Of a DNA stretch of 64,000 bases, positions 1 through 58,048 are shown piece after piece. A program made the translations under genes and the position numbers. The notes beneath the pieces were generated by a model. The model worked only from the letters and a program-made list of their open reading frames with translations, made no database searches and was not told the DNA's origin. The stretch lies in the NCBI GenBank assembly GCA_038105035.1, contig JAYOBT010000004.1, positions 1,803 to 65,802 of the forward strand, given 5' to 3'. The stretch's first letter is position 1. The number at the start of each line of letters is the position of its first letter. This stretch comes from Candidatus Poseidoniales archaeon. Its GTDB lineage: Archaea; Thermoplasmatota; Poseidoniia; Poseidoniales; Poseidoniaceae.

Positions 1-2013
1 ATGGACAAATCGAATGGGATTCTCTACATCGCTGATGCTGGCGCAAACCGTGTCCTGTGGGTCAATACGGACGATTCAACCACCACAACAACGGACATCA
101 TGGGCGATGCATCTCGGCTTGAGCCACTTGCAGAATACTCCGAAATTACAGACGTTGAGTGGGGTGTGCTGGCAACTGGGCTCAACCTACCTTCTGGTAT
201 CGCTCTTGCTGATGGTCAACTCTTTGTCTCTGAAAATGGCAATGGAAAGATTGTCGCCTACGAGCTTGCTTCTGATGGAAAGAGTGCAGTTGAACTTGAC
301 GACATTCAAACTTCTGCTACCTCAATCATGGGATTAGAGGTTGGACCAAACGGACATCTGTACTACGTCGACAACGGTCAAGATGAGGTCGTTCGAATCG
401 ATCCATATACCGATGAAGACGGTGATGGTGTTGGCGATGGAGTCGACAATTGCCCCAACATCGCAAATCCATTGCAAGCCGACTTTGACAACGATTCAAT
501 CGGAGATGTTTGCGATGAAGACGATGATAACGATTCGATTTTGGATATTGATGATCAATGTATACGCGGCCAACTCGATTGGACGTCAACGATGCTGAAC
601 GATCATGATGGAGATGGCTGTCGAGATGCGACGGAAGACACGGATGACGACAACGATGGTGTCGTTGATGCCTCCGATCTTTGTTCTGCAGGAGATTTGG
701 GCTGGACGTCATCAGCTTCAACCGATTACGATGCGGATGGATGCCAAGATGCATTCGAAGACATTGATGATGACAACGACAGAGTCTGCGATGCTAGCGA
801 TTTGAGCAGTTCATGGGCTTGTACACCATCGACCGCGAGCGTTGATCTCTGTCCAGAAAGTTCTCTCGGGTTCTTCTCGAACAATCAGAACGATGTAGAC
901 GGTGATGGTTGTGAAGATGCTACCGAAGATTCCGATGATGACAACGATGGATTTGTTGACGACGTTGATGCCTGTCCTTTGGATGCAGGAACAAGTTCGC
1001 TCGGTTCAGAACTCGGTTGCAGCGACTACGATTCAGATGGGTACAGCGACTCCATTGATGTGTTCCCAACAGATTCGACACAGTGGTTGGATGCAGATGG
1101 CGATGGATATGGCGACAACCCAGATGGTTTCGAAGCAGATGGATGCGTCAATCAAGCAGGGCAGTCAACGATGGAGACCTTCGGATGTCCGGATGCGGAT
1201 GGAGATGGTTGGTCAGATTTGAACGATGCTTTCCCGAACGAGGCATCGCAACATGCAGATGCCGATAGCGATGGCTTTGGAGATGCTATTGATGGGTTTC
1301 AAGCGGACGAATGTCCAATGATTGCTGGAACATCAACCGAGGACTTTTTCGGATGCTTGGATTCAGATGCTGATGGATGGTCAGATTTGAACGATGCTTT
1401 CCCTCAAGAACCAACACAACATAGCGATGCTGATGGTGATGGCTATGGTGATAATGCAGAAGGAGACCTCCCAGATAGCTGTCCAGAACTGTACGGTCTT
1501 TCCTCCATCGATCGGTATGGATGTCCTGATACGGATGGAGACGGTTGGGAAGATCGTTCTGATGCATACGTAAGCGATGCTCGCTTATGGTCTGATACGG
1601 ACGATGACGGTTATGCCGACCAACAGGGAACAAACCTATCGGATGATTGCCCTGAAACGTTCGGCACATCGATTCTCGATTTCGTAGGATGTTTGGATTC
1701 TGATGGGGATGGCTGGTCCGATCAAACCGATGCATATCCAAACGATGCATCGAAGTATCTCGCTGCAGAAGAAAAACTGGATGACAGTAACTTCACGCTC
1801 ATTGGTCTTGGAATTGGAATACTTGTTTTGGTGTTCCTCATGCTCTTCATCATGCGAAAGAAGACAACAGTAGAGCATGAGTTCGGTTTCGTTGCTCCGC
1901 CAATTCCAGAACCACTTCCGAGTGCACCCCCGCTTCCTCCTGAAGGATTGCCAGCAGGTTGGACGATGGAACAATGGATGTATTACGGGGAAGATTACCT
2001 CAAGCGCCAATAG
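1..2013 (+). CDS. Surface protein with NHL-like propeller blades, thrombospondin type-3 (TSP3) Ca-binding repeats, a C-terminal TM anchor and a Pro-rich tail; possibly 5'-truncated at the window edge
   Basis: The ORF is open from nt 1, so the ATG at 1 may be internal. Blade-like motifs GILYIADAGANRV, GQLFVSENGNGKI and GHLYYVDNGQDEV. Canonical TSP3 DEDGDGVGDGVDNCPNIANPLQADFDNDSIGDVCD. Five GC-x-D-x-DGDGWSD...AFP-x-E-x2-QH-x-D-x-D-x-DG-x-GD modules. Hydrophobic FTLIGLGIGILVLVFLMLFIM is followed by RKK. Confidence 0.8.
   Translation: MDKSNGILYIADAGANRVLWVNTDDSTTTTTDIMGDASRLEPLAEYSEITDVEWGVLATGLNLPSGIALADGQLFVSENGNGKIVAYELASDGKSAVELDDIQTSATSIMGLEVGPNGHLYYVDNGQDEVVRIDPYTDEDGDGVGDGVDNCPNIANPLQADFDNDSIGDVCDEDDDNDSILDIDDQCIRGQLDWTSTMLNDHDGDGCRDATEDTDDDNDGVVDASDLCSAGDLGWTSSASTDYDADGCQDAFEDIDDDNDRVCDASDLSSSWACTPSTASVDLCPESSLGFFSNNQNDVDGDGCEDATEDSDDDNDGFVDDVDACPLDAGTSSLGSELGCSDYDSDGYSDSIDVFPTDSTQWLDADGDGYGDNPDGFEADGCVNQAGQSTMETFGCPDADGDGWSDLNDAFPNEASQHADADSDGFGDAIDGFQADECPMIAGTSTEDFFGCLDSDADGWSDLNDAFPQEPTQHSDADGDGYGDNAEGDLPDSCPELYGLSSIDRYGCPDTDGDGWEDRSDAYVSDARLWSDTDDDGYADQQGTNLSDDCPETFGTSILDFVGCLDSDGDGWSDQTDAYPNDASKYLAAEEKLDDSNFTLIGLGIGILVLVFLMLFIMRKKTTVEHEFGFVAPPIPEPLPSAPPLPPEGLPAGWTMEQWMYYGEDYLKRQ
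413..1757 (+). repeat. TSP3-type acidic Ca-binding repeat array inside CDS 1..2013
   Basis: Reiterated DxDxDGxxDxxD loops flanked by Cys. Boundaries are approximate. Confidence 0.7.
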
Positions 2014-2071
2014 CCTTGACGTTACAATTCAGAGACCAAAAGGTATCAAGCCGACATGGTTAGCATTGTCT

Positions 2072-2983
2072 GTGGATAACGTCAATATTCAAGCCTTCTT
2101 CCTTGGAGTAATATTCCTCACAGCAGGGGGCTATCTTGCTTTTGATATGCAAGACAACATCACATGGATGACGTATTCCTCCGATGATAAGGAAGAATAT
2201 TTTGATGGTGATTTTTGGTGGACAATGGATGTTACCACCGAGAACGATTATGGTTTACAGGAGTCAATAATTTCAGCAAATGGGCAAATGTGCGATGAAC
2301 GTGACTGTTATCCAATTGAAATGAGTTCAGAATTTGAGATATTGGATCACCCCGTTCTGTTGGAAGAGCGAGGTGAACCTGTCGACTGCGATACTACAAA
2401 AGAAGACTCTGACATTTCAATTTGTGAAATAGCCTCAGCGGGTTCAACTGCAGAAACGATTATCTCCACAGGGCTTGGAATTCTCGCTTTCACAATTCTT
2501 CTCTCTCTTGTAGGCGTTTTCGGCTACATTCCTGGGCGTGTACTCAAACTACTCAGTTCGGTTTCATCCTTGATTCTCTTTACTGGGCCAATTGTTTGGT
2601 ATGTATTGATGCCTGACTTGAACGCAGACATAAGCGCGACCGAGGAAAAGTACAAACTATCAACAGGTTTCTATTTGACACTACTCAGTTCTCCTCTCGT
2701 CTTTGTTGCGGGTGGATTTTGTGGAAGTATGGAGGCCTTCGCTTACGAAGAAGAGGAGGATTGGGATCAAGAAGATGATGACTTCATGAGCGATGATGAG
2801 TACGAATCCTACTCAGATGCATACGATCGACCGACGAAGGTTGATGCAGTCAGCGAAGGTTCAATCGATGTCAATTTACAAGGCGTCCTCGACGAAGAAG
2901 GTTACGAATGGCTTGAACATCCTGAAGGTAGTGATGAATGGTACTGGCGTGATCAAGATACTGGAACTTGGGTTCGTTACTGA
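2072..2983 (+). CDS. Hypothetical polytopic membrane protein with an acidic tail ending in a Trp-rich WW-like module
   Basis: ORF 1877..2983 overlaps the upstream gene until 2013. The first in-frame starts after that are TTG 2066 and GTG 2072. The first ATG (2147) would delete the first hydrophobic helix IQAFFLGVIFLTAGGYLAF. Three more hydrophobic helices follow. The tail is EGYEWLEHPEGSDEWYWRDQDTGTWVRY. The start is uncertain. Confidence 0.55.
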   Translation: MDNVNIQAFFLGVIFLTAGGYLAFDMQDNITWMTYSSDDKEEYFDGDFWWTMDVTTENDYGLQESIISANGQMCDERDCYPIEMSSEFEILDHPVLLEERGEPVDCDTTKEDSDISICEIASAGSTAETIISTGLGILAFTILLSLVGVFGYIPGRVLKLLSSVSSLILFTGPIVWYVLMPDLNADISATEEKYKLSTGFYLTLLSSPLVFVAGGFCGSMEAFAYEEEEDWDQEDDDFMSDDEYESYSDAYDRPTKVDAVSEGSIDVNLQGVLDEEGYEWLEHPEGSDEWYWRDQDTGTWVRY

Positions 2984-7836: not shown

Positions 7837-8577
7837 ATGTATGACCTCCTCATGGCGAAGAAGAGAGGAGGGTTTGGCCGTTTCCTCGGGGCACTTACTG
7901 GTACGCCATACGAACGTCTACTCAAACAGGTTGAGAAACTCGCAAATGAGCACGCTGATGACGAGCGAAAACTCGGAAAAGCCCTCAAAAAACTCGTTGA
8001 TGTCGTCGGGACGGCGTACGAGGAAGAAGAAATTGACGAAGACGAGCATGACCTTGTCATCGAAGCCATTGAAGAGGCAGACCCAAAGGGACGTTCCTTC
8101 CCGAAATTCGCTGAAGAAGATGCATTTTATGCCAACGATGCGCCAGATGCCCCAGAATTGGATCTTGGCAAGCGTAAGAACTTGGATGAATTGATGACAG
8201 CATCAGGAAAAGAATTCACTGGAAGTTTTGGTCGTGACGAATTTGAAGAATTCAAGGCACGTATGACGGATGACTTCTATGCCGATTCGGATGAAGCCAT
8301 CCAAGCTGGCGATCATCATGCTACAATTCGAACAGAGAATCGAGTGTTTGCCGATGAAGAGGATGAACTTCAGAATGTTAAAGCAATGATCTCACAAGAA
8401 TCAGGCCTTGCTGACCCGACCGCCGTCGAAGAAGAGGAAGAAGAATCCTTTGAAGGCGACGAGAATTATTCCATCGATGAGGATGGAACAGAATGGTTCC
8501 AAGACGATGATGGTTACTGGTGGTATCGTCCTGAAGGAGAGCCTGAATGGCTGCCTTGGGAAGAAGACGAGGATTGA
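7837..8577 (+). CDS. Soluble, highly acidic hypothetical protein ending in a WW-like Trp-rich module
   Basis: No hydrophobic helix. D/E-rich. C-terminus DGTEWFQDDDGYWWYRPEGEPEWLPWEEDED. Confidence 0.6.
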   Translation: MYDLLMAKKRGGFGRFLGALTGTPYERLLKQVEKLANEHADDERKLGKALKKLVDVVGTAYEEEEIDEDEHDLVIEAIEEADPKGRSFPKFAEEDAFYANDAPDAPELDLGKRKNLDELMTASGKEFTGSFGRDEFEEFKARMTDDFYADSDEAIQAGDHHATIRTENRVFADEEDELQNVKAMISQESGLADPTAVEEEEEESFEGDENYSIDEDGTEWFQDDDGYWWYRPEGEPEWLPWEEDED

Positions 8578-16437: not shown

Positions 16438-19400
16438 ATGGAAGAACGCGCAGTATGGGGAAATCGGTTTCTGACACTGTGTTTGACGTTGCTTTTCGCA
16501 ATGCCACTCCTTGCACCACTTGCATCCGCTGACGGCATGACGACCTGCGATAGCGTCCCAGGGTTCAGCGATTGCGACGACTATGATTCAAGCGATGATG
16601 GAACACCGTTCCAACAAGATTGGATTCGTGGAACCTACGATTTTGATTTACAAGATACATCAACCATCCACATGACCTTGAGTTGGGCAGTTCGTGAATT
16701 CGATCGCAGTAAGGTTGGCCTCGATGATTCGACCACACAAGCTGCACTCGCAGCAGATGGTCTCGATGATGACGATGGAATTCCTGCAGACATGATTCGA
16801 ACCTACTTTGCTTACGATGACGGTACTGGAACAGTTGGTGACAAGATGCTGGTCGAGGTTGAAGACACCATCCATGACCTCCTTTCCAATGGTTTTGGTA
16901 CGGTCACAGCCATCAACACGCAGTACGATGGGATCTATACAGAAGCAGGTTCTTCCGAGGTATGCACAACCGATGCAACACAAGATTCAGTGTATGATTC
17001 TGGTTCAGGCGTTACGGAAAACAACGCCTTCGACCCACCAATTTGCTTCTCAACCATCGCAGAGATTGAGTTGTCAACGAGCACCTTCAACCTCCTTGAA
17101 AATTCAGACCTCGATCTTGAGCGAGCCTACCAAGGCCTCTTGATTATGGGTTCTGAACTGACGACACAATTCAGCGTGTTTGCTGAACCAGGTCATGCTT
17201 CTACTTTCTCCATCAGTCCTCCAGATTATGCAGCCATTGTTGGTGTTGACAGCAATGGCTCGATTCAACCATCAGCATGTCTACCAGCAGCTTGCGTTGG
17301 CCAGTGGACGGTCGACAACCTCAACGCTGGTGTAGGCGCCTCTCGCGTCGACCAGACCGTGAGTCTGACGATGGGCTACCGCAACACATCAACGACATCC
17401 ATTGTTGAACTCGATCCGAACGAAGAGGCGGTAACCCTCCATCTCAAGGTGGATTTGTTTGACGAACAAGCGGTTCAAATCGACTTTGTTGCGGGTATTA
17501 ACTATCTTGATACAACTACGATGGATAATTGGGGCATTTCGCTTGTTGAATTATCCAATCTTGCTACAATTCCTCAGATTACTTCCGATGGTATCCGTTT
17601 GGCGTATGAGAACGGCATTGCTCCACTCGACGACTTTACCGATCAATTCCCGGTCGCTTCGGTTGGGGATGCGTTTTCGGATTCCATACCGGGTGCACCT
17701 GATATTCAGATGGGCGACCTGACCTGGGTAAGCGATTCTGTTGCGGATGGTATCGAAGGGCCTGCTGGCGGTTTGAATTACAGCCACTCTGTTGGTTGTT
17801 CCGAAACAGTGACACCACCAGATACGATTTCGTATTGCATTCTGGGGTCGAGTGCGATGGGTTATGATCATCCAATTTACCTACGTTCAACGAGCAATAC
17901 CTTCGAACTTGGACTGCTTGATCTCATTCAGGAAAATCTTCCAGATTCGGAATTTGATTTGGATGGCGAGACGTACTCCGTAAGTGATTACTTCGACGTG
18001 ATTACCAATGAAGACCTTCGACGACTAATGGATGCCGGACTTTCGCTCGAAACGGTCCTTGATACAGGCTTCCTTGAAAGCATGATTCCGTCTGATCTTC
18101 CACCATCAAAGATCACACTTGAACTCATTTTACCGAGTTGGATTGAGACCATAGGCGGTGATGACCGTATCATCTTGGAACACTCCGAATCTGGTGAGAA
18201 CAGGAATGAGATTTCCATTGCAGGACCATCTCCTTACGCCTACAATCACCCAATCCTCAATGAAGACGGCCAAACCATTTGTTTGCAGACGCAGAAGACG
18301 TGTGTTTCCACATCGCTATCCATCGATTTTGATACGTTCGACATCAATGAGTGGACTAAATCGGTTTCCGTTGAATTTGGGCTTGAAGCGAATGCTGTTG
18401 TTCACCGAGTTGCTGTTCCTCAGGGATATTACGATGTCAATGATGACACAACAGTCCGAATGGAAGTGATTCCGAGTGACTTGATTCGACTTTTCGGGGA
18501 CATCATGAGTCGTACTGATAAACCAATCAAGATTGAACGATGTCTCGAACCAAGTACTGCTTTCAGTGATTGTCCTACCTCGCGCCAACTTGTTTTCGAA
18601 CTTACTTCAGACGGATTGATGCAATTTGGTACCGATGTTGGTGAACTTCTTACCAACGAAATACATCTTGCTGCGGAAGGACTTGAGGACATTGAAGAAG
18701 GGCCAGAATTTTCAGCTGTTGATATCGGGGATTTTTCTATCGAAACAAGTCTTGCAGGTCTTGGAACACCTGGTCCAATCGTATCGGATGAAGTTGGCCT
18801 GAGTGTGAGTCTCAAAATTCCAAAAGTTCGATTCACGTTGGCTGTATCGAGCCCGTGGGGAGATTTGTTGAGTGGTAATCCAGACTTGATTACGCTTTCA
18901 CTATTGACCGAGAACATCAATGGCGCCTTCCGTTCACCTCTCCTTCAACCGATGGTCATGATGGTCGATGAAATGTCGTCAATGATGGTAGCGAGCGTTG
19001 TCTCATCAGAAGGTGTAACCTTCCCTCCACTCGAACAAGAAGCCCTCACAGTTGAGACAGGATCTTGGGATACCACCATCCATGAAGAGACGGAATTTGA
19101 CCTCACTGGACCTGTTAGTTTCACCTTGCCAAAGGGCATCATTGCCAAGGAAGCCACATCTGCCCAAGGGAACATGATTGTGACAGAAGATGCGGAAGGT
19201 CGTCAAGTCATCACGTACACGATTCCACCCGATGGTCTTGATGATGAGGTGACACTTCGCTTGCAAGTCACGTGGTTGTATCTTCTTGGTCAGTTCTGGG
19301 CCTATCCGGCTGTTGTCGTCATCTTGTTGATTCTCTTGATACGGCGACGTCGAAAGAAGAAGAAGAAAAAGCGAGCTGCAAGAGAATCGAAGAATTCTCT

Positions 19401-19536
19401 GTACAAGGCTCAGAAGATGGGATTGTCCGAATCGGACTTCGCTCAAATGGCTGGATTGGTTGACCGTCAAGTCGGAGGATATGAGGAAGGCATCGACCCG
19501 TTTGAGGCGATGCAATATCCGCCTGAACAGCCTTAG
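16438..19536 (+). CDS. Large (1032 aa) secreted acidic protein with a C-terminal TM anchor; no recognisable domain
   Basis: Signal peptide FLTLCLTLLFAMPLLAPLASA. TM helix AYPAVVVILLILLI followed by RRRRKKKKKKR. Confidence 0.7.
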   Translation: MEERAVWGNRFLTLCLTLLFAMPLLAPLASADGMTTCDSVPGFSDCDDYDSSDDGTPFQQDWIRGTYDFDLQDTSTIHMTLSWAVREFDRSKVGLDDSTTQAALAADGLDDDDGIPADMIRTYFAYDDGTGTVGDKMLVEVEDTIHDLLSNGFGTVTAINTQYDGIYTEAGSSEVCTTDATQDSVYDSGSGVTENNAFDPPICFSTIAEIELSTSTFNLLENSDLDLERAYQGLLIMGSELTTQFSVFAEPGHASTFSISPPDYAAIVGVDSNGSIQPSACLPAACVGQWTVDNLNAGVGASRVDQTVSLTMGYRNTSTTSIVELDPNEEAVTLHLKVDLFDEQAVQIDFVAGINYLDTTTMDNWGISLVELSNLATIPQITSDGIRLAYENGIAPLDDFTDQFPVASVGDAFSDSIPGAPDIQMGDLTWVSDSVADGIEGPAGGLNYSHSVGCSETVTPPDTISYCILGSSAMGYDHPIYLRSTSNTFELGLLDLIQENLPDSEFDLDGETYSVSDYFDVITNEDLRRLMDAGLSLETVLDTGFLESMIPSDLPPSKITLELILPSWIETIGGDDRIILEHSESGENRNEISIAGPSPYAYNHPILNEDGQTICLQTQKTCVSTSLSIDFDTFDINEWTKSVSVEFGLEANAVVHRVAVPQGYYDVNDDTTVRMEVIPSDLIRLFGDIMSRTDKPIKIERCLEPSTAFSDCPTSRQLVFELTSDGLMQFGTDVGELLTNEIHLAAEGLEDIEEGPEFSAVDIGDFSIETSLAGLGTPGPIVSDEVGLSVSLKIPKVRFTLAVSSPWGDLLSGNPDLITLSLLTENINGAFRSPLLQPMVMMVDEMSSMMVASVVSSEGVTFPPLEQEALTVETGSWDTTIHEETEFDLTGPVSFTLPKGIIAKEATSAQGNMIVTEDAEGRQVITYTIPPDGLDDEVTLRLQVTWLYLLGQFWAYPAVVVILLILLIRRRRKKKKKKRAARESKNSLYKAQKMGLSESDFAQMAGLVDRQVGGYEEGIDPFEAMQYPPEQP

Positions 19537-44818: not shown

Positions 44819-47353
44819 ATGCTCGGGCGTAGCATTGCAGTTGGCATGTTTGCCCTCATGCTGCTGGCTATGGTGCCATCTGTTCATGCCGACGATTCGC
44901 AGGCCTCCTCAAATTTGTTGACCGATGGCGTTTCGTCCAACGGTTATGTTTGTGACCCTGATGGCTGTTCACCCAACGATGGAACAGACTGGTGGCGAAT
45001 TTATGCCTACAAAGGAGACATCGTCAGTATTGCATTCTCCGGTTCGATGAGCAATGCAGCTTGGTGGTGTCCTGGTGATGGATGGGAAGGAGATTACTCG
45101 ATGCACGATGAATCGGGTTCTCAAGTTGCAACCATGGGACGAAGTGACGACAACCCATCTGGAACGTTGTCGAAGACCATGTCTCAAGCAGGATATGTTT
45201 ACGTCAAAATCAAAGGAAAAGATTCTTGGTGCAACGATGGATTTGACTACACGCTTCTTGCCTCCATCGACAAGACGGTTCGCGACACCGATGAGGACGG
45301 TTTTGTTGACTCCGATGATGATTGCGATTTGATTGTTGGAACGTCCACAAATGACCGACAGGGTTGCATCGATACGGATTCGGACGGTTGGTCCGACACC
45401 GATGCGGGATGGGATGTACAGAACGGTGCAGATGCTTTCGAAAACGATGCGACGCAGTGGCGTGATCGTGATTTCGATGGTTATGGCGATAACATTCTTG
45501 GTAACCAACCCGATCACTGTCCAGACAGCCGTGGATACTCGACTTCAGATCGATATGGCTGCATCGACTCAGATGGTGACTCCTATTCCGATGCGGACCC
45601 CGGTGGCCTCAATGGGCTCGAACCATGGTACGCTCATCCAAACGGTCTAGCGGATGCCTTCCCGCTTGAGGTTACGCAGTGGCAGGATACGGACGGTGAC
45701 GGTTATGGCGACAACTGGGATGACCCAATGTGGAATCAAACGCACTTGGAATGGGGAATCGGGCAGTGGCTTGAAACAGCATACCAACCCGATGCGTGTC
45801 CATTCATTCTGGGAATCTCATTCGCCGATCGTTACGGTTGCCCCGATGCAGACGGAGATGCTTGGTCCGATCCGGGCGAGAACTGGACGGCTGTCGATGG
45901 TGCTGATGCGTTCCCATTTGAGCCAACACAATGGCGAGACCGAGATTTTGATGGATACGGTGACAACCAATCCGAAGGTGCTCGGCTCATCGATGATTTC
46001 CCCGACAATCCGACTCAATTCCGTGATTCAGACTTTGATGGTTGGGGTGACAATCAGACCTATGGAGCCACACAAATCGATGACTTCCCAATGATTCCTA
46101 GCCAATATCGGGACAGCGATGGTGATGGATTTGGTGACAACCTCGCTGGATTTGAGGGCGATGTCTGTATGAATTCCAATGCTGAAGAAGTTGAAAGCGG
46201 TTGGATTTCGCGCTTCGATCGCCTCGGTTGTCGTGATGTCGATAAGGACGGGTATTCCGACCCAACCGATGATTGGATTTCCCATCCTCAGGGTTTTGCC
46301 GATGCCTTCCCGAACGATGCCTCTCAGTGGCATGATACCGATAACGATGGATTTGGTGACAATATGGAATATTTCGACGGTCAAGCATGGCGCCTTGCTT
46401 ATCGTGGCGATGGATGCAAAACCACCTACGGCTTGTCGACGTTTGACCGTTGGGGATGCCCAGATTTCGATGAAGACGGTTGGTCCGACCCAACACCATA
46501 CTGGCTTGCTAGTCCAGGCGGCACAGCGGATGCTTGGCCAGAGGACCCAACCCAATGGCACGACCAAGATGGTGATGGTCGAGGCGACAACCCCTCAGGA
46601 ACAACTGCTGATGTATGTCCATCGCAACCTGGAACTTCTGTTGGTCCAAGTTCCGGAGGCGACCGTTGGGGCTGTCCAGATACAGACGGTGATGGATGGT
46701 CGAATCTTGGTGATGCATTCATTCATGAGCCAACACAATGGCGTGACACGGACGGTGACGGCTATGGTGATGAAGCTGACGGAAATGAGGCGGATGCATG
46801 TCCAAACAGTCGCGGTACCTCAATTCTCGATCGATTGGGTTGCCGTGATACCGATGGTGATGGATGGTCCGATCCAACCGATGGTTGGGACGCTCATCCA
46901 TACGGTTCTGCGGACGCCTTCCCAACTGAAGCCCTGCAGTGGAAGGACAGCGACGGTGATGGATTTGGGGATGTTCCCCTCGGTGCACTCCGAGATGATT
47001 GTCCTGAAGAATCCGGAACCTCAACTCGCGATGTACAAGGTTGTGAAGACAACAACGGGGATGGTTGGTCGAACGAGTACGGAGAGTGGAATGCCGCCCT
47101 CGCAATTATGGGAGAAGACCCTGCAGCATCTTGGTTGACGTATCTCATCGTCGGTGTTTCATTCATTCTTGGTGCTTCGGCAGCGCTTGTTGTTCGTACA
47201 ATGCGTTCTGAAGACGAAAAGGCCTTGACGGAAGATTTGCTTGCAGTCAATGAAACTACTGAACCCGTCATGCCATCCAATACCGTCGAAATGGGATTGC
47301 CGGAGTTGGCGATACCACTCCCTCCACCACCTGGAGGTGAGAACGATGCGTAA
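44819..47353 (+). CDS. Surface protein with a pre-peptidase-C-terminal-like domain, about 8 double Ca-binding (TSP3-like) modules, a TM anchor and a Pro-rich tail
   Basis: Signal SIAVGMFALMLLAMVPSVHA. DGTDWWRIYAYKGDIVSIAF. Repeated GC-x-D-x-DGDGWSD...DAFP-x-[DE]-x-TQW-x-D-x-DGDGYGDN...CP-x3-GTS. TM helix LTYLIVGVSFILGASAALVV. Tail ends ...LPELAIPLPPPPGGENDA. Confidence 0.8.
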   Translation: MLGRSIAVGMFALMLLAMVPSVHADDSQASSNLLTDGVSSNGYVCDPDGCSPNDGTDWWRIYAYKGDIVSIAFSGSMSNAAWWCPGDGWEGDYSMHDESGSQVATMGRSDDNPSGTLSKTMSQAGYVYVKIKGKDSWCNDGFDYTLLASIDKTVRDTDEDGFVDSDDDCDLIVGTSTNDRQGCIDTDSDGWSDTDAGWDVQNGADAFENDATQWRDRDFDGYGDNILGNQPDHCPDSRGYSTSDRYGCIDSDGDSYSDADPGGLNGLEPWYAHPNGLADAFPLEVTQWQDTDGDGYGDNWDDPMWNQTHLEWGIGQWLETAYQPDACPFILGISFADRYGCPDADGDAWSDPGENWTAVDGADAFPFEPTQWRDRDFDGYGDNQSEGARLIDDFPDNPTQFRDSDFDGWGDNQTYGATQIDDFPMIPSQYRDSDGDGFGDNLAGFEGDVCMNSNAEEVESGWISRFDRLGCRDVDKDGYSDPTDDWISHPQGFADAFPNDASQWHDTDNDGFGDNMEYFDGQAWRLAYRGDGCKTTYGLSTFDRWGCPDFDEDGWSDPTPYWLASPGGTADAWPEDPTQWHDQDGDGRGDNPSGTTADVCPSQPGTSVGPSSGGDRWGCPDTDGDGWSNLGDAFIHEPTQWRDTDGDGYGDEADGNEADACPNSRGTSILDRLGCRDTDGDGWSDPTDGWDAHPYGSADAFPTEALQWKDSDGDGFGDVPLGALRDDCPEESGTSTRDVQGCEDNNGDGWSNEYGEWNAALAIMGEDPAASWLTYLIVGVSFILGASAALVVRTMRSEDEKALTEDLLAVNETTEPVMPSNTVEMGLPELAIPLPPPPGGENDA
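45284..47090 (+). repeat. Array of about 60-aa double Ca-loop modules (TSP3-like); the same module family occurs in CDS 1..2013 and 50225..56470
   Basis: Periodic DGDGWSD / QW-x-D-x-DGDGYGDN motifs. Boundaries are approximate. Confidence 0.7.
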
Positions 47354-48632
47354 GATGGCGACGTTCTTGATTCTGCTTTTCGTTGTACCAATGCTAAGTG
47401 CTGGGCAAGTCAGTGCAGAAGCCGATATTGGACTTGAAGAAGAGGGAATTACGATGGTTGCATTACGCAACGACACCCTCGATTTGAACCAAGATGGCGA
47501 CATTGACGCTGTACGGGTTGTTGTGATTCTCAACTCGACCATTGAATCGACCATTGTCGATGTTCGCCTCATTGCTACCCACAACGACAGAGAAGTCGTT
47601 GAGTCAACAACAATAGAAATTATTGGGCAGTCAAATGTGAGTCTAACATATGACGCCTGGTCACGTGGATCTCATGACCTCGCTCTCGGTTTCTACGACA
47701 TGAACGGGGTTGAAATATCCACCATCGCTTTGCCTAGTTACGAGATGGTTCCTGCTCTCCAAACACCAATGATTTCGCTTCAGTTCAGTGGACAGAACAA
47801 CTTGCAAACGGGTTCGAATTGTGAAATCAATCGGCTCTTTATGGATGAAACAGGCCCTCGTTACGGCGCGCTTGGGACGCTTACATTCACAGGTGCACCT
47901 TTCATTGTTCTCGACAATGCAACGAGCATCGATTGTTCCTCTTGGCCAGCAGGCCAGTATTCACTCCGCGAAACCTATCGCAATGAACTCGGTCAAACCG
48001 CTGAGGCATCGCTGAATTTGACGATTGAAAATCGTCCAGCACCAACCTTTGAACTCGTAGTCACTGGTGATGGATTGTCCACCGATCGTTCGTGCTTGAT
48101 CGCTATACAACCGACGAATTCCAATGAGGATTTTACTCCATATGCAAAGGAATGGGATGTATCAACAACATCAACCGTTACTAATGGTTCAGTGTACGAT
48201 TGTTCGGCACTCCCTGCAGGGGTTCATCTTGTTGTCCTCAAGGTTACGAATATTGAGAACATTGCAAGCACACAAGCCGTAAACATCGTTCGACTTCCGG
48301 CTGCTGAACTTACCCAAGAGGAGCAAGAAGCCCTGCCGAGCCAATCGTTTGGAAAGGAAACACCGACCGAAGAAGTTGGCTGGTATACGATTGCCGTCCT
48401 CGGTTTGATTGTTGCGATTGTCGTGTTTGTTTTGCTCGTCCGAATACGAGAAGACGATGAGTTGTTGACTTTACCCGAACTTGGCCCAGCGCCTCAAATT
48501 CTCAACGATGGTTCGCCCGATCCTCAAGGATTGCCAACCGTCCTCGATGATGAAGGTCAACTTTGGAGAAAACATCCAGACGGTTCATTGGATTGGTGGG
48601 ATTCAACCTACAACATTTGGCAACGCTGGTGA
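47346..48632 (+). CDS. Secreted Ig-like/beta-sandwich protein with a TM anchor and a WW-like Trp-rich C-terminal module
   Basis: ATG 47346 overlaps the upstream stop by 8 nt (alternative ATG 47355). Signal ATFLILLFVVPMLSAGQVSA. TM helix YTIAVLGLIVAIVVFVLLV followed by RIRED. Tail EGQLWRKHPDGSLDWWDSTYNIWQRW. Confidence 0.65.
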   Translation: MRKMATFLILLFVVPMLSAGQVSAEADIGLEEEGITMVALRNDTLDLNQDGDIDAVRVVVILNSTIESTIVDVRLIATHNDREVVESTTIEIIGQSNVSLTYDAWSRGSHDLALGFYDMNGVEISTIALPSYEMVPALQTPMISLQFSGQNNLQTGSNCEINRLFMDETGPRYGALGTLTFTGAPFIVLDNATSIDCSSWPAGQYSLRETYRNELGQTAEASLNLTIENRPAPTFELVVTGDGLSTDRSCLIAIQPTNSNEDFTPYAKEWDVSTTSTVTNGSVYDCSALPAGVHLVVLKVTNIENIASTQAVNIVRLPAAELTQEEQEALPSQSFGKETPTEEVGWYTIAVLGLIVAIVVFVLLVRIREDDELLTLPELGPAPQILNDGSPDPQGLPTVLDDEGQLWRKHPDGSLDWWDSTYNIWQRW

Positions 48633-50224: not shown

Positions 50225-53200
50225 ATGCGCAAGGAGCGGACGCTTTGTAAATCGGTCCTTTCCTTGGGACTCGTCTTACTTCTGCTTGTCCAATTGATGG
50301 CTCCACTCGGTATCCAAACGATGACAGAAGAGCCAGTTCTTCCAGAATTCTCCCCCGTCATTTTGACACTTCCAAACAACCTTGAACACGGACACGATCT
50401 CGCAGGCCAAACCATCGATGTAGAGGGGATGACAGAATTGTTGGTTCGTTCGGATTCATCCATCGATATGTGGATGAGCGACGTTCTTGTAGCTGAGTCT
50501 GGCAACAACTTGAGCACACCCAGCGTCTACTTGGCAGAAAACGGGTCGAGTTACTCCTGCTGGATGAATGACCTTGGAGAGGTACGAATGGGTATTTACA
50601 GCGCTACGGGCGTCTTTTCGCATTCACTTATCGATACGGTTAGCACCTCGAATGGTCTCATTGGTTGCTCCGTCGTTGCAGACGAATCCTATCGCCCACT
50701 TGCTTTGTTTGGGGATGGGGCAGACCTGAAGATGGCTCGTTTGGCTTTTGAAGGTCAAGTGTACTCAGTTGATACCTGGCTCAAGCGTACCATTGTTGAG
50801 GATCTTTATCCCGAATCCATGACCCTTCGGCTCACAAACGAGGGGACTGAATTCGCAGTGGTCCGTACCTCCAATGGGGAGTTATGGCAAGTCAACAACA
50901 GTGGATTGCGTTGGTATCACAGTCTTCTTGACACTGGACCGGTTGGTGATGAAGTCGAATTGAACATGGATGAGTATGGCGTCGCCAACATCGCTTACAC
51001 TCGTTCGGGTGAAGCGGTCCGTTTGCAAGTCGATGGTCAACAGCGCACCGAACAGATTCTCGCTCGAGATACGAACCTGCATACAGCGATAGGACTCGAT
51101 CTCGATTTGAATGGGCTTGCTCAAATCGCCACAACATCGTTTGATTCGACACAGACCGAACTTTCCATCTTCAAGAGCCTTGAAGACCAATCGACTGGAC
51201 GACTCTCGAGCGAATCGATGAATGTGCATGCACTCTATCCAGATGTCGAGGAAGGTGCTGCAGATTATGGTGACTTCAACGATGACGGATTTGATGACGT
51301 TGTGTTTACACAACCGTCTGCCTCCGATAGCGGATTAAACCAGAATGGGCGCGTTGTAGTCCTCTTTGGCGGCAACGAGAGTTTCGATTCTTCAACACCG
51401 GTGGTTTTGAGTGGTACACAATCGCATGAGAGATTTGGTAGTGGAATCGCAATCGGAGAGTTCCTCGGAAATGGGATGACTCAGTTGCTTCTTTCCTCAT
51501 CAGGTTTTGACAACTCGAGTCGTGTAGCAGAAAAGAACCACGGACTTCTTTCGATGTATGAATGGAATCAAACTCAATTCGATCTCGTATGGAGTTCATC
51601 AGGAAACCACGAAGAAATGCTTGGAATGGATGTTTCACGTATCGATGACTTCAATGGTGACGGATATGACGATGTTATCGCACTGCAAGGAAATTGGAGC
51701 GATGAGACCTCAACCGGCAGATTGTCTGTCTTCGAAGGGACCTCAGATGGTCTTCAGTTGTCGCACAATATTACCGCAAACACAACTGGTCCGTTCTTTG
51801 GTCGTTCAATGTCAAGCGGAGGTGACCTCAACGGCGATGGCTACGGTGACTTTGTTGTATCGAATTCTGGAAACGAAGATTCGCCAACTGGTTATTCTGC
51901 CATCGAAGTATTCTATGGGTCATTGGATGGATTTTCAACAACCTCGGACCAAAGCATTCAGCGATTGGCTACGGGACAGTTGTTTGGAACGGTTGTCGAA
52001 ATTATAGATGACATCAACAACGATGGAATGGATGAATTGCTCGTTCAAGAATTCTCTCCATTGGGGGCTCCATTGTACAGTGGTACAGTTCACATGTTTA
52101 TGGGCAACAGTTCGGAGAATTTCTCCGAAACCCCTGATTGGACCAGTCAAGGCGAGGGCAACGAACGGTTTGGCTGGATGTTCGCTCCTGCTGGTGATGT
52201 GAACGACGATGGCTATGCCGACACGTTCATCGGTTCAGGGACAAGTTTCACCCCATCCGGTCAAATCAATTTGTATCTTGGTTCGGCAGACGGCTTCGCA
52301 ATGGCGGTTGAAACCATACGAACAGGCAGTCCCACGGACCATCTCGGCCTTGTAACGCTTGGAGGCTTTGATTCAAATGCAGATGGCGCAATTGAATTTG
52401 TTTATTCAACACGAAACGCAACCCGAGGCACAACATACGGCGTCGATATGATCACCGTGAGCAAGCAGGATTTCGATACGAGCCAATTTACGTTCCAAGG
52501 CGAGATGTCAGGACTCAAACTGACCACATCAAACCGTGGTGAGACTGCAATGATGTTCTCCTTGAATTCCTCTTCATCGCATTCTCTTGTTCATCTTGAG
52601 CATGTTGACGATGGCTCTCCAGGTGGTTCATGGGTCACTGAAATCTTGGGCACAGATTCTGCTCCATTCCAATTCCAATTCGATGTCACTGCTTCAGGGC
52701 AACCCAAACTGGTCACGCTCGAAAACATGAGCGGATATACGCATCACACGACCACGTCATGGACTTCTTTGCATCAAGAAATACGCACGTTCAATGATTT
52801 CGGAACATACCCAGCATCGGCCATTGATGCAAATGGTAACTTGCACATGGTCTATTCGCATCCAACCATCGAAAAACTGTATTACTCGCACGAGACTGAA
52901 ACGGGATGGGCATCGACTGAGATTCTCTCAAACGCCAACCTTTCTTCCTCTCCATCGTTGTGGTTTGATGGTGGAGACATGCACATCCTCTATCGTGATT
53001 CAAGCCTCGATCGACTCGAGCGAGCGACAAAGTCAGGGAGCAGCTGGTCAACCGCCACAGAGCTTGGTACTGGTGAGGCCGTCGGAATTGAGCATGTCAC
53101 GCTGAAAGTACCATCGGGTCCAACTCTGGTGGCAACAACCGTCAACAACTCGAGTGTGCATGAACTGCAAATACTCGACATTGACAACGATGTTTCGACC

Positions 53201-56470: not shown

Positions 56471-56515
56471 AGCAGTAACAGCAACCTCAAAAACAACACG
56501 TGATTGGCGAAAATA

Positions 56516-56520
56516 GGAGG
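56516..56520 (+). promoter_or_regulatory. Shine-Dalgarno-like GGAGG, 7 nt upstream of ATG 56528
   Basis: Read directly from the sequence. Confidence 0.4.
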
Positions 56521-56527
56521 AAGTGAA

Positions 56528-58048
56528 ATGTCTGAAGGTGTACCTGAAGGAGCAACCCTCCCAGATGGTATTGAAGTCGATGATGCCGCGGCTTATTTCG
56601 GTGTTGTTGACTCATCTGACGTCCTTCAACAGATGATGGCGATGGATTCGAAACAGGCGCTCTCAAAGGCGCTTGAGCACCTAGCTGACATTATTTTGCG
56701 TCCTGGAGAATTCGATTTTGAAGCTGCAAGCGAACGCTTGCAATGCGAAGGTGGTGAGATTTACTTCTTGATTTTTGGACATCTCAACCTCATGGCCCTT
56801 CCTGATCCCTTGCTCCAATTTGCAGGCCAACCCGATTCGACAGGTTCAGCCAATTCAGCGCATCCACTCGCCACTGCAGACGTCGTCCAAGCACTCAGTC
56901 CTCTGTTCGATCCGATGCAATTCCTCAAAATTCTCGCTATTGCTCACGCAACAGGCGGAACCACAGAAGTCGAGCGTTACCTTCAGTCGATAGAAGGCGT
57001 TATGGCAGCTCCTTCTGACAATGTTGAGAAGATGCAGACGATGGCTGAAGAGCTCAAATCCTCCCTTGATGTGGCTGGACATGCTCTACCTATGCCGCTT
57101 TTCGCAAGCGATCAAGCACAACCTGCTGAAATCGAAATGGGCACAATCATCGAGCGGAGAGAACCAGAACCTGCACCGGACCCCGTTGCGTCAGCACCTG
57201 AGGTCGTTTCAGAACCAGAACCAACGCCTGAGGTCGTGACTTCTGAACTAGAACCTGAATCTGTACCTCTGCCCTCTGCCTCCGTACCTCTTCCAACTGC
57301 TGATTCTGTCCCATTACCGAGTCAGGAAGAGCCTGTTGAAGAGGAGGCTGGATTCAAGAACGAAGTCGAGGTCGACCACGCAGCACAGGACGCTTTTGCT
57401 GGTGCATTTGGATCACAACTTGTTCCAGAGCCAGAGGTCGTTCCAGAGCCCGTAGCAGAAGTCGTTCCAGAGCCAGTTGAACCCGTTGTTAGCGAGCCCG
57501 AACCCGAACCGGTTGTTGAAGAACAACCAGAGGAGGAATGGGTCAGTGATGCTGAACGATTCATCGCTGCAGATGTTGATGATTCAGGGAGTCTTTCAGT
57601 CGAAGAACTCGCCGTTGCTGCGAACGTAACCATCGAAGAAGCAGAAGAGTTGCACACTGCAGCAGATACAGATGGAGATGGTGAAGTTTCACTCTCCGAG
57701 TTTGTATCTTCTGAGGCTGCACAACAGATGTCATCACTGCCCCGTCCAGTTGCTCCAGTCCGCAAACCAATACAGTCTCAGCAACCTGCTCAACAACAGC
57801 CTCAGCAACAACAACCTGTTCGCCAGCAACCAGTATCTCCTGGTGTCGCCGCCCCTCAGATGGGTTGGCAACAACCGCTTCCGCAACAACAACCCATGCA
57901 ACAGCCGATGATGCCTCAACAACCGGTCATGAACATTCAACCGACCATTCGTTCAGGAATCCATTGCCGAGGATGTGGTATTGGCCTCGATCCAAACTGG
58001 CGGTTCTGTCCCATTTGTGGGAACATGAACATGAGTGCGCATCGCTAA
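56528..58048 (+). CDS. Cytoplasmic protein with an unknown N-domain, a PE-rich linker, a canonical EF-hand pair, a P/Q-rich low-complexity region and a C-terminal zinc ribbon
   Basis: EF loops DVDDSGSLSVEE and DTDGDGEVSLSE at 57572..57700. QQPAQQQPQQQQPVRQQP... region. CRGCGIGLDPNWRFCPICG at 57965..58018. Confidence 0.7.
   Translation: MSEGVPEGATLPDGIEVDDAAAYFGVVDSSDVLQQMMAMDSKQALSKALEHLADIILRPGEFDFEAASERLQCEGGEIYFLIFGHLNLMALPDPLLQFAGQPDSTGSANSAHPLATADVVQALSPLFDPMQFLKILAIAHATGGTTEVERYLQSIEGVMAAPSDNVEKMQTMAEELKSSLDVAGHALPMPLFASDQAQPAEIEMGTIIERREPEPAPDPVASAPEVVSEPEPTPEVVTSELEPESVPLPSASVPLPTADSVPLPSQEEPVEEEAGFKNEVEVDHAAQDAFAGAFGSQLVPEPEVVPEPVAEVVPEPVEPVVSEPEPEPVVEEQPEEEWVSDAERFIAADVDDSGSLSVEELAVAANVTIEEAEELHTAADTDGDGEVSLSEFVSSEAAQQMSSLPRPVAPVRKPIQSQQPAQQQPQQQQPVRQQPVSPGVAAPQMGWQQPLPQQQPMQQPMMPQQPVMNIQPTIRSGIHCRGCGIGLDPNWRFCPICGNMNMSAHR

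What the first reader, a model, noticed from the sequence alone, without database searches (positions are those of the whole stretch)
1897..2010. Poly-proline (PPLP / PPPP / PPGR) cytoplasmic tails on the Ca-binding adhesins
After their single C-terminal TM helix, three TSP3-type surface proteins carry short proline-rich tails. CDS 1..2013 has APPIPEPLPSAPPLPPEGLPAGWTMEQWMYYGEDYLKRQ, which contains PPLP. CDS 44819..47353 has GLPELAIPLPPPPGGENDA at 47294..47350. The 2081-aa giant has GGPPPSRGPSGPKRGPPGGSRAPSSGPPGRGPPG at about 56003..56212. PPLP and Pro/Arg-rich PPGR-type strings are the classic ligand classes of eukaryotic WW (groups II and III) and GYF domains. The same window also encodes a WW-like module on three other proteins (next finding). 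Together these suggest a module-ligand network that tethers adhesin tails below the membrane, which to my knowledge has not been described for archaea. The first tail also ends in LPAGW-x4-W-x-YYG, which looks like a half copy of the WW-like module.
Basis: partly seen in the sequence, partly recalled or inferred. Interest (0 to 1): 0.7.

Follow-up and report, generated by a model that had tools for sequence, protein, structure and literature searches.

The report
Conserved cytoplasmic tail tag on archaeal adhesins
The proline-rich end of the first adhesin is one copy of a roughly 29-residue, almost invariant, unannotated C-terminal module that many unrelated surface proteins of the marine archaea Poseidoniales carry on their cytoplasmic tails, which points to a shared but still unknown partner inside the cell rather than sequence drift.

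Summary
All three Ca-repeat surface proteins have one C-terminal TM helix followed by a Pro-enriched cytoplasmic tail (P = 13-19% against 4.8% in the window).

The three tails are different things.

- **Tail 1 (1924..2010)** is a conserved module, [GA]-P-P-[LIV]-P-x-x-G-L-P-x-G-W-T-M-E-Q-W-x-[WY]-Y-G-x-x-[YW]-L. A profile of it finds 636 protein clusters (50% identity level). It almost always lies at the extreme C-terminus, after a signal peptide, unrelated ectodomains, one TM helix and a variable 1-122-aa linker. Every named carrier is a Poseidoniales, Thermoplasmatota or Euryarchaeota "hypothetical protein". Pfam, NCBIfam, PDB and a literature search give nothing. PPLP is a fixed part of this module, followed by a predicted amphipathic aromatic helix.
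- **Tail 2** ends in PLPPPPG. A similar terminal PPPPG recurs in several divergent paralogue tails.
- **Tail 3** is an indel-rich P/G/S/R spacer with recurring RGPPG. It lies between an acidic block and a strongly conserved helical end domain.

The proposed WW-like/ligand network is possible topologically but is not shown. The Trp-rich modules are conserved and cytoplasmic, yet they match no WW model or WW structure. Gene adjacency holds only in close relatives.

The most likely reading is a shared docking tag for an unidentified cytoplasmic partner.

The parts
1..2013 (+). 3' part (670 codons) of a ~920-aa type I surface protein with NHL and thrombospondin-type-3-like Ca-binding repeats. The window edge cuts off its N-terminus and signal peptide.
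   Evidence: Full-length orthologues in L001 and L002 have a signal peptide.
1792..1854 (+). Single transmembrane helix, FTLIGLGIGILVLVFLMLFIM.
   Evidence: Hydropathy scan and translation. It is followed by RKK, which fits the positive-inside rule.
1855..1923 (+). Juxtamembrane basic residues plus a variable Pro-rich linker, RKKTTVEHEFGFVAPPIPEPLPS.
   Evidence: Across 140 carriers the linker is 1-122 aa long (median 32), is not alignable, and averages 13% P.
1924..2010 (+). Conserved C-terminal cytoplasmic module APPLPPEGLPAGWTMEQWMYYGEDYLKRQ. It consists of a PP[LIV]P segment, GLPxGW, and a predicted amphipathic aromatic helix.
   Evidence: invariant P, G, L, P, G, W, T, Q, W, Y, G, L; 636 clusters at E<=1e-3. 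AF2 helix at tail residues 38-51, with block-mean pLDDT 86-87 over residues 31-50; purifying selection.
2066..2983 (+). Downstream gene for a 4-TM membrane protein. The start is uncertain (ATT 2027, TTG 2066 or GTG 2072). The ATG at 1877 is unlikely, because the orthologous reading frames open only after the adhesin stop codon.
   Evidence: Orthologues lie directly downstream of the adhesin in L002-L005.
2882..2980 (+). Trp-rich 'WW-like' C-terminal module, GVLDEEGYEWLEHPEGSDEWYWRDQDTGTWVRY.
   Evidence: Nearly invariant in L002-L004, while the acidic linker before it varies. AF2 predicts 4 short strands with block-mean pLDDT 70-78. No WW match in Pfam or Foldseek.
8473..8574 (+). Trp-rich C-terminal module, IDEDGTEWFQDDDGYWWYRPEGEPEWLPWEEDED, of the soluble acidic protein encoded at 7837..8577.
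   Evidence: It is conserved in L002-L004 and in P0365-P0370.
44819..47353 (+). Adhesin 2: signal peptide, Ca-repeat ectodomain, one TM helix (47132..47194) and a 52-aa cytoplasmic tail (47195..47350).
   Evidence: No Pfam family was found.
47315..47335 (+). PLPPPPG, located 5 residues before the C-terminus of adhesin 2.
   Evidence: It is identical in orthologue P0092. Other paralogue tail families also have PPPPG or PPPPPG within about 3 residues of the C-terminus (P0042, P0044, P0096, P0102), with variants in P0079 and P0081.
47346..48632 (+). Gene directly downstream of adhesin 2, overlapping it by 8 nt. It encodes a type I membrane protein with a signal peptide, one TM helix and a 63-aa cytoplasmic tail.
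   Evidence: The same arrangement is found in L037.
48546..48629 (+). Trp-rich C-terminal module, DDEGQLWRKHPDGSLDWWDSTYNIWQRW.
   Evidence: (P0371).
50225..56470 (+). The 2081-aa giant surface protein with FG-GAP and TSP3-like repeats. It has one TM helix (55850..55906) and a 187-aa cytoplasmic tail (55907..56467).
55922..56002 (+). Juxtamembrane acidic/aromatic block of the giant's tail, GYDFDDDDDDDEFFDDDDDEDDFFSSF.
   Evidence: Conserved in 20 orthologues at 41-79% identity.
56003..56212 (+). P/G/S/R-rich low-complexity spacer of the giant's tail, with recurring RGPPG and GPSGPKRGPPG units.
   Evidence: In 20 orthologues the composition and a terminal [SN]RG-PPG are kept, but repeat number and length vary through indels.
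56267..56467 (+). Conserved helical end domain of the giant's tail, KVRRARIEVDMSLFEEWQADDRDAAVEWV...ERTLLMQLQGTGWSAQQSRAIYDMARNQQ.
   Evidence: 28 invariant columns in 6 sequences spanning 48-94% identity. The alignment of 20 orthologues is.

Best explanation
The three tails are cytoplasmic ends of type I surface proteins of a Poseidoniales (Marine Group II) archaeon, but they are three different devices.

**Tail 1.** It ends in a discrete, mobile module of about 29 residues: [GA]-P-P-[LIV]-P-x-x-G-L-P-x-G-W-T-M-E-Q-W-x-[WY]-Y-G-x-x-[YW]-L, followed by 3-6 more residues. Many unrelated Poseidoniales surface proteins carry it at their extreme C-terminus. I take it to be a shared docking tag. 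A polyproline-type segment (PP[LIV]P..GLPxGW) leads into a capped amphipathic helix. The invariant aromatic face of that helix (W, Y, [YW], with G, M and L) is either packed by the prolines or presented to a common, still unidentified cytoplasmic partner. That partner would anchor, sort or cluster these proteins under the membrane. PPLP is a structural or recognition element inside this larger unit, not a stand-alone WW ligand.

**Tail 2.** It carries a second, simpler motif: PPPPG a few residues from the free C-terminus.

**Tail 3.** Its Pro/Gly/Arg-rich stretch is mainly a flexible spacer of RGPPG-type repeats. The spacer holds a conserved helical end domain away from an acidic juxtamembrane block.

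**Shown:** existence, conservation, position, topology, distribution across carriers, and the predicted helix.
**Inferred:** that the module binds a partner, and what that binding achieves.
For: **Conservation**
- 50 of 120 homologues of the C-terminal 300 aa share the module after non-alignable linkers.
- In 272 unique sequences anchored only on W..EQW..YG, the upstream positions are P 95%, P 90%, [LIV] 100%, P 100%, G 100%, L 98%, P 100% and G 99%.
- Synonymous codon differences outnumber non-synonymous ones, 399 to 149.

**Breadth**
- The profile finds 636 representative clusters at E<=1e-3 and 442 at E<=1e-10 among 1.84e9 proteins. The match nearly always ends within about 4 residues of the C-terminus.

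**Carriers**
- Carriers have a signal peptide, an ectodomain, one TM helix, a linker and the module. The ectodomains include PKD, CARDB, cadherin-like, beta-propeller-like and TSP3 types, or have no Pfam match.
- Every named carrier is a Poseidoniales, Thermoplasmatota or Euryarchaeota hypothetical protein.

**Topology**
- Positive-inside rule: 2.84 against 0.55 K/R.

**Structure**
- AF2 with 80 sequences predicts a helix at MEQWMYYGEDYLKR. Block-mean pLDDT is 86-87 over tail residues 31-50 and 74 over residues 21-30, which include PPLPPE.
- The helix is amphipathic (muH 0.36-0.42 against 0.19+/-0.09 for shuffles) and acidic (net charge about -2). This favours protein contacts over lipid contacts.

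**Not previously described**
- No Pfam, NCBIfam, PDB or literature match.

**Tail 2**
- Orthologue P0092 has an identical PLPPPPG, and terminal PPPPG recurs in divergent paralogue tails.

**Tail 3**
- An alignment of 20 orthologues shows an indel-rich RGPPG spacer between conserved blocks.
Against: - No partner has been identified and no interaction was computed.
- The AF2 model is a 52-residue peptide with mean pLDDT 72.7. I could not inspect its coordinates, so packing of the prolines against the helix is an inference.
- Foldseek found nothing comparable.
- The extreme-C-terminal position could reflect how 3' ends of genes are exchanged rather than a need for a free terminus. A minority of carriers extend 25-80 residues past the module.
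- For tail 2 only one close orthologue was available.
- For tail 3, the conserved RGPPG units could still be ligands rather than only a spacer.
Confidence: 0.55

Rival explanations
1. The PPLP, PPPP and PPG strings are ligands of the Trp-rich WW-like C-terminal modules on neighbouring membrane and soluble proteins. Together they form a sub-membrane module-ligand network.
For: - Both kinds of element sit on cytoplasmic C-termini.
- The WW-like modules are conserved while their linkers vary.
- The W-to-W spacing of 20 residues and the central aromatic pair fit the WW pattern (sequence).
- AF2 predicts a small antiparallel sheet.
- The genes directly downstream of adhesin 1 and adhesin 2 both carry a WW-like module. 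By my estimate this has a chance probability of roughly 0.01-0.02, given 3 such genes among about 45.
- The adhesin 1 adjacency is kept in L002-L005. L002 and L005 have a further WW-like small membrane protein upstream.
- The best PDB sequence match of the tail profile is the start of the SAV1 WW domain, but it is non-significant (E=0.3).
Against: - No WW, GYF or DUF2510 match appears in Pfam, even at E<=10.
- Foldseek gives no WW domain and no hit below E=1.
- The WxxP proline is absent.
- The adjacency is absent from four more distant loci with the same tail (L001, L039-L041).
- A 4-residue ligand does not explain about 20 near-invariant positions.
- The PPLP region receives fairly high AF2 confidence, so it may be ordered and occupied in cis.
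- None of the 290 carriers has both elements in one chain.
Confidence: 0.15
2. The module is an autonomous mini-fold: a polyproline helix packed on an aromatic helix, as in pancreatic-polypeptide (PP-fold) or Trp-cage miniproteins. It would work by self-association, clustering different surface proteins through tail-tail contacts, with no separate partner.
For: - The prolines and the aromatic stripe (W5, Y8, [YW]12 of the helix) are invariant, as is a Gly inside the helix.
- AF2 confidence extends over the non-regular PPLPPEGLPAGW segment.
- The helix is amphipathic and acidic.
Against: - No coordinates were available to confirm the packing.
- There is no structural neighbour in the PDB.
- The predicted helix has only 14 residues.
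- Self-association is pure inference.
Confidence: 0.15
3. The Trp/Tyr-rich helix is an interfacial membrane anchor that lays the end of the tail back onto the inner leaflet.
For: The helix is rich in aromatic residues and amphipathic. The linker length is unconstrained.
Against: - Mean hydrophobicity is about 0 and net charge about -2.
- Q, G, T and the proline segment are strictly invariant, which lipid binding does not require.
Confidence: 0.05
4. The Pro-rich strings are low-complexity drift in disordered tails and have no sequence-specific role.
For: The linkers upstream of the tail 1 module and most of the giant's P/G/S/R region vary freely in length and sequence.
Against: - Conservation and codon analysis exclude drift for tail 1.
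- Terminal PPPPG recurs in divergent families.
- RGPPG is retained in orthologues of the giant at 41-43% identity.
Confidence: 0.03

Closest known systems
Proline-rich ligands of eukaryotic WW group II/III and GYF domains (PPLP; PPG/PPR motifs)
   Same: Tail 1 contains PPLP. PP[LIV]P is near-invariant across the family, and it is PPLP in about 75% of sequences. The giant's tail contains RGPPG and GPPGR strings. All of these are cytoplasmic.
   Different: PPLP is fixed inside a ~29-residue module with many other invariant positions. No WW or GYF domain was detectable in the window by Pfam. Binding is untested.
WW domain (Pfam PF00397), compared with the Trp-rich partner modules
   Same: The modules are about 30 residues long. 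The two Trp are 20 residues apart in the 4-TM protein. There is an aromatic pair in the middle strand, and an antiparallel sheet is predicted.
   Different: There is no Pfam match and no structural match to WW domains. No Pro follows the second Trp. AF2 adds a fourth strand. The other two modules have different spacings.
PP-fold (pancreatic polypeptide/NPY) and Trp-cage miniproteins
   Same: Both combine a polyproline segment, a turn and a short amphipathic aromatic helix within about 30 residues.
   Different: This is an analogy only. There is no sequence or Foldseek similarity. The archaeal module is tethered to membrane proteins, and its packing has not been verified.
Conserved cytoplasmic tail motifs of eukaryotic adhesins, for example the acidic Trp-containing tail of apicomplexan TRAP-family proteins that couples thrombospondin-repeat adhesins to cytoplasmic partners (PMC5015959, abstract), or integrin NPxY tails (my own knowledge)
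   Same: In both cases a type I adhesin with thrombospondin-like repeats has a short cytoplasmic tail carrying a conserved aromatic motif at its end.
   Different: The sequences are unrelated, the setting is archaeal, and the partner is unknown.
Prokaryotic C-terminal sorting signals (PGF-CTERM/archaeosortase, LPXTG/sortase; my own knowledge)
   Same: These are also conserved C-terminal tags shared by many otherwise unrelated surface proteins of one lineage.
   Different: The order is reversed. Sorting signals run motif, TM helix, basic tail, and are cleaved outside the cell. Here the order is TM helix, basic residues, linker, motif, so the motif stays in the cytoplasm.

Membership tests
WW group II ligand (PPLP) | A PPLP core is present | tested here: met
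   PPLP is at residues 643-646 of CDS1. Across 272 family members the positions are P 95%, P 90%, L 75% (I 18%, V 7%) and P 100%.
WW group II ligand (PPLP) | The motif lies in an accessible, unstructured stretch with few other constraints | tested here: inconclusive
   The motif is embedded in a ~29-residue near-invariant module. AF2 block-mean pLDDT is 74-86 over this segment.
WW group II ligand (PPLP) | The motif binds a WW domain | not testable with these tools
   No multimer prediction or binding assay was available.
WW domain (the Trp-rich modules) | The sequence matches the WW family model | tested here: not met
   No WW hit, and no related hit, for 12 module sequences at E<=10 in Pfam. 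NCBIfam also gave nothing.
WW domain (the Trp-rich modules) | Two signature Trp lie 20-22 residues apart, with a central aromatic pair | tested here: met
   This is met in EWLEHPEGSDEWYWRDQDTGTW, where the spacing is 20. The 7837..8577 and 47346..48632 modules have shorter spacings.
WW domain (the Trp-rich modules) | A three-stranded antiparallel sheet similar to solved WW structures | tested here: inconclusive
   AF2 predicts 4 short strands, with block-mean pLDDT 70-78 over the module and only 12 sequences in the alignment. Foldseek against the PDB gives no hit below E=1 and no WW domain among the top 50.
WW domain (the Trp-rich modules) | A conserved Pro lies two or three residues after the second Trp | tested here: not met
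   The proteins end in ...TWVRY* and ...IWQRW*. Only the 7837..8577 module has W-L-P-W.
GYF-domain ligand (PPG-type) | A PPG core with flanking R/K, and a GYF domain in the same system | tested here: inconclusive
   RGPPG strings are present and are retained in orthologues. Pfam found no GYF domain in the six window proteins scanned, and the genome was not surveyed.
Disordered low-complexity spacer (tail 3) | Biased composition is kept while length and repeat number change through indels | tested here: met
   Alignment of 20 orthologues.
Sortase/archaeosortase-type C-terminal sorting signal | Tripartite order: motif, then hydrophobic helix, then basic residues | tested here: not met
   The order here is TM helix, basic residues, linker, motif.
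New Poseidoniales C-terminal tail module (defined here) | The P-P-[LIV]-P-x2-G-L-P-x-G-W-[TS]-x-[ED]-Q-W-x2-Y-G-x2-[YW]-L motif lies within about 10 residues of the C-terminus, downstream of a single TM helix | tested here: met
   Window residues 642-670.

The most novel reading that the evidence does not exclude
Poseidoniales, the most abundant planktonic archaea of the surface ocean, may have a eukaryote-like system of modular cytoplasmic 'address tags' on their surface proteins. The tags seen here are the GWTMEQW module, Trp-rich beta modules, terminal PPPPG, and small helical end domains. These tags would bind each other or a cortical scaffold, coupling adhesins on the outside to an organised layer under the membrane.
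Probability: 0.15. Interest if true: 0.8.

Novelty: new variant of a known kind. Interest (0 to 1): 0.6.

Why it matters
Cytoplasmic tail motifs that link adhesins to intracellular machinery are a hallmark of eukaryotic cell biology. To my knowledge they are hardly described in archaea. Here a single ~29-residue tag, absent from Pfam and NCBIfam, marks the cytoplasmic end of many unrelated surface proteins in an uncultured but globally abundant archaeal order: 636 clusters at the 50% identity level, of which the full-length carriers examined are type I surface proteins. The tag gives a concrete handle for three things. A synthetic peptide can be used as bait to find the partner. The tag can be used to annotate a whole class of "hypothetical" surface proteins. 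It also allows a direct test of whether these cells organise their envelope from the inside.

Tried and rejected
1. **Pfam and NCBIfam.** Scans of tails and Trp-rich modules, down to E<=10, found nothing relevant.
2. **PDB sequence search with the tail profile.** The only hit is a non-significant match (E=0.3) to the LPPGW start of the SAV1 WW domain. The WW-like profile gives only chance hits.
3. **Foldseek on both AF2 models.** There were 0 hits for the tail. For the WW-like module there was no hit below E=1.
4. **Possible homology between tail end modules.** I asked whether the tail 1 module is related to two other end modules: AQGYxxExAxxYTxQYF in paralogues, and the giant's ...TGWSAQQSRAIYD domain. 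hhalign picks the register I expected (GWTMEQ/GWSAQQ/QGYxxE), but at probabilities of 0.3-1.4%. The idea is not supported.
5. **Profile searches with the search for homologous proteins on short queries.** These returned only short fragments of up to 82 aa, so they were useless for domain architecture. A first attempt failed on the 40-aa minimum query length.
6. **Gene neighbourhood as evidence for a PPLP/WW-like link.** The adjacency holds in close relatives only and fails in L001 and L039-L041.
7. **Literature.** There are no hits for the motif strings. Searches on Poseidoniales adhesins and tails, and on prokaryotic WW domains, found nothing that describes these modules.
8. **Membrane-anchor reading of the helix.** I rated it unlikely because of the helix's charge and hydrophobicity.
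Full report
**Source and genes**

Names attached to homologues show that the window comes from a Candidatus Poseidoniales (Marine Group II) archaeon.

CDS 1..2013 is the 3' two-thirds of a protein of about 920 aa. Full-length orthologues in L001 and L002 start with a signal peptide. The window's first ATG aligns to an internal Met, in ...VMDKSNGILYIADAGANRV....

Pfam sees NHL and TSP_3 repeats in CDS1. In the giant it sees FG-GAP plus a weak TSP_3 match. It sees nothing in adhesin 2, although that protein has the same kind of Asp-rich repeats.

**Check of the observation**

All three quoted strings are present, with tail 1 offset by one codon. Each follows a single hydrophobic helix and a cluster of basic residues.

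Proline makes up 19%, 15% and 13% of the three tails, against 4.8% in the window's proteins. The binomial P values are 2e-4, 3e-3 and 1e-5. Tails of three other type I proteins in the window are not enriched.

**Tail 1 is a member of a large, unannotated module family**

Among the 120 best homologues of the last 300 residues of CDS1, 50 end in nearly the same sequence: GPPLPPEGLPxGWTMEQWxWYGEDYLKNR. It is preceded by linkers that cannot be aligned.

An 80-sequence profile (A3) was searched against 1.84 billion representative proteins. It finds 636 clusters at E<=1e-3 and 442 at E<=1e-10. The match almost always ends within about 4 residues of the C-terminus.

I collected 272 unique sequences by anchoring only on W..EQW..YG. 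In these, the upstream positions, which were not part of the anchor, are P 95%, P 90%, [LIV] 100%, P 100%, G 100%, L 98%, P 100% and G 99%. PP[LIV]P is therefore a fixed part of a roughly 29-residue unit, not a free-standing motif.

Among nine loci, the 25 core codons show 399 synonymous against 149 non-synonymous codon differences over 36 pairwise comparisons. The non-synonymous differences number only 2-8 per pair. Selection therefore acts on the peptide, not on the DNA.

**Carriers and topology**

Full-length carriers all have the same layout: signal peptide, large ectodomain, one TM helix, linker, module. The linker is 1-122 aa long (median 32). The ectodomains are unrelated to each other: TSP3-like, PKD, CARDB, cadherin-like, beta-propeller-like, or with no Pfam match.

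There are on average 2.84 K/R in the 12 residues after the TM helix and 0.55 before it. The module is therefore cytoplasmic.

A minority of carriers continue for 25-80 residues past the module and end in ...LLDDLDL/F.

Every carrier that has a name is a "hypothetical protein" of Poseidoniales, Thermoplasmatota or Euryarchaeota MAGs.

Pfam, NCBIfam, PDB sequences, Foldseek and a full-text search for the motif strings return nothing.

**Likely structure of the module**

AF2 with the 80-sequence alignment predicts a helix over MEQWMYYGEDYLKR. Block-mean pLDDT is 86-87 over tail residues 31-50 and 74 over residues 21-30, which include PPLPPE and have no regular secondary structure.

On a helical wheel the invariant T, W, Y and [YW], together with G, M and L, fall on one face. 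The acidic residues fall on the other. The hydrophobic moment is 0.36-0.42, against 0.19+/-0.09 for shuffled sequences. Mean hydrophobicity is about 0 and net charge about -2.

This pattern fits a protein-contact surface better than a lipid anchor. The surface could contact the module's own proline segment, as in PP-fold or Trp-cage miniproteins, or it could contact a partner. I could not inspect the coordinates, so the packing is an inference.

**Tail 2**

The close orthologue P0092 keeps ...LPELAIPLPPPPGGENDA. Several divergent paralogue tail families also end in PPPPG or PPPPPG followed by two residues (P0042, P0044, P0096, P0102), with variants in P0079 and P0081. This suggests a second, simpler terminal motif. 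The evidence is thinner, because I had no searches left for more distant orthologues.

**Tail 3**

Twenty orthologues at 41-79% identity all share the same order of elements:
- the TM helix;
- RNRGYDFDDDD and an acidic Phe/Trp-containing block;
- a P/G/S/R-rich stretch whose length and repeat number change through indels, but which always contains RGPPG-type units;
- a basic patch, KKVRRARIEVD;
- a strongly conserved end domain of about 55 residues, ...ERTLLMQLQGTGWSAQQSRAIYDMARNQ.

The Pro-rich part behaves mainly as a spacer. Retention of RGPPG leaves a ligand role open.

**The proposed WW-like partners**

Three window proteins end in Trp-rich modules: at 2882..2980, 8473..8574 and 48546..48629.
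- The first protein has four TM helices.
- The second is soluble and acidic.
- The third is a type I membrane protein.

All three modules should be cytoplasmic. They are conserved in relatives while the linkers before them vary.

The first module has the WW-type W-x20-W spacing. AF2 predicts four short strands with block-mean pLDDT 70-78 over the module.

However, Pfam reports no WW model or related model, even at E<=10. Foldseek finds no WW domain and nothing below E=1. The Pro after the second Trp is missing. Membership in the WW family is therefore not established.

**Gene neighbourhood**

In the window, the genes immediately downstream of adhesin 1 and adhesin 2 both carry a Trp-rich module. 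The first pairing is kept in four genomes at 63-78% identity (L002-L005). The second is kept in one near-identical contig (L037).

In four more distant loci that encode TSP3-type proteins with the same tail module, no such neighbour exists (L001, L039-L041). The neighbourhood signal is therefore suggestive but shallow.

**Verdict**

That is the main result: a new, widespread, lineage-specific C-terminal cytoplasmic module.

The specific mechanism proposed, PPLP/PPPP/PPG ligands bound by WW-like modules, remains an untested minority hypothesis. I rate it at about 0.15.

The best-supported reading is a shared docking tag with an unidentified cytoplasmic partner, at about 0.55. A self-associating mini-fold is the main alternative, at about 0.15.

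Rinke et al. 2018 (PMC6461757) note thrombospondin-type genes in Poseidoniales as evidence for adhesion, but a term search of that paper found no mention of cytoplasmic tails or proline motifs.

Noticed in passing
P0165, P0171, P0175, P0181, P0196, P0290, P0330, P0333, P0352: A subset of module carriers continues past the module with a T/S/P/Q-rich stretch. These proteins end in an acidic-hydrophobic motif...LLDDLDL...DDLDF or ...LGDLDL, which looks like a second terminal short motif.
   Followed up: partly
P0307, P0340, P0291, P0221 and others; P0306, P0261, P0280, P0288, P0360: The linkers upstream of the module contain further recurrent motifs. ANSMYGG(A/T)QxLFQQP occurs in one set of carriers. 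ALEG(K/T)AGLSASGG(V/I)ESDxxWDD occurs in the beta-propeller-like family. The tails therefore look like strings of several short motifs.
   Followed up: no
P0055, P0067, P0070, P0077, P0101, P0106: Another class of TSP3-type paralogues ends in a different conserved C-terminal domain, PDPAREYYNGLxAQGYxxExAxxYTxQYFPxF. hhalign does not support a relationship to the tail 1 module (probability about 1%).
   Followed up: partly
window 56267..56467: The giant's tail ends in a strongly conserved helical domain of about 55-67 residues (...LFEEWQADDRDAAVEWV...ERTLLMQLQGTGWSAQQSRAIYDMARNQQ). It has no Pfam or NCBIfam match and is more conserved than the Pro-rich stretch that drew attention.
   Followed up: partly
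L002 1463..1858 and L005 1455..1856: A small protein of about 131 aa with two TM helices lies about 1.3 kb upstream of the adhesin 1 orthologue, just outside the window. It ends in a fourth WW-like module, GVLKEGYEWLEYPAGSETWYTRPETGGPWTKYQV.
   Followed up: no
L004 (CAXQWT010000037.1): This contig is filed under a 'Salipiger bermudensis' (alphaproteobacterial) MAG. It carries the syntenic Poseidoniales gene set at 68% identity, so the contig is probably mis-binned.
   Followed up: no
window 56504..58048: The gene after the giant encodes an acidic protein with an EF-hand-like pair (DVDDSGSLSVEEL...DTDGDGEVSLSEF), a long Q/P-rich stretch and a C-terminal zinc-ribbon (CRGCG...CPICG).
   Followed up: no
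window 16438..19536: Another large type I surface protein has an unusually basic juxtamembrane run (RRRRKKKKKKRAAR). Its tail ends in ...MQYPPEQP and belongs to none of the tail classes above.
   Followed up: no
P0368: A metagenomic fragment has PPLP and other Pro-rich strings directly upstream of a WW-like module in the same tail (MPPLPKTTSITPGIPTLPDVSSIGVWGDDGYEWLEHPVNSGEWYWR...). The proposed ligand and module can therefore occur in cis.
   Followed up: no
window 1877..2013: The longest ATG-initiated ORF for the 4-TM gene overlaps the end of the adhesin by 137 nt. Orthologous reading frames open only after the adhesin stop codon, so the true start is probably ATT 2027, TTG 2066 or GTG 2072.
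   Followed up: partly
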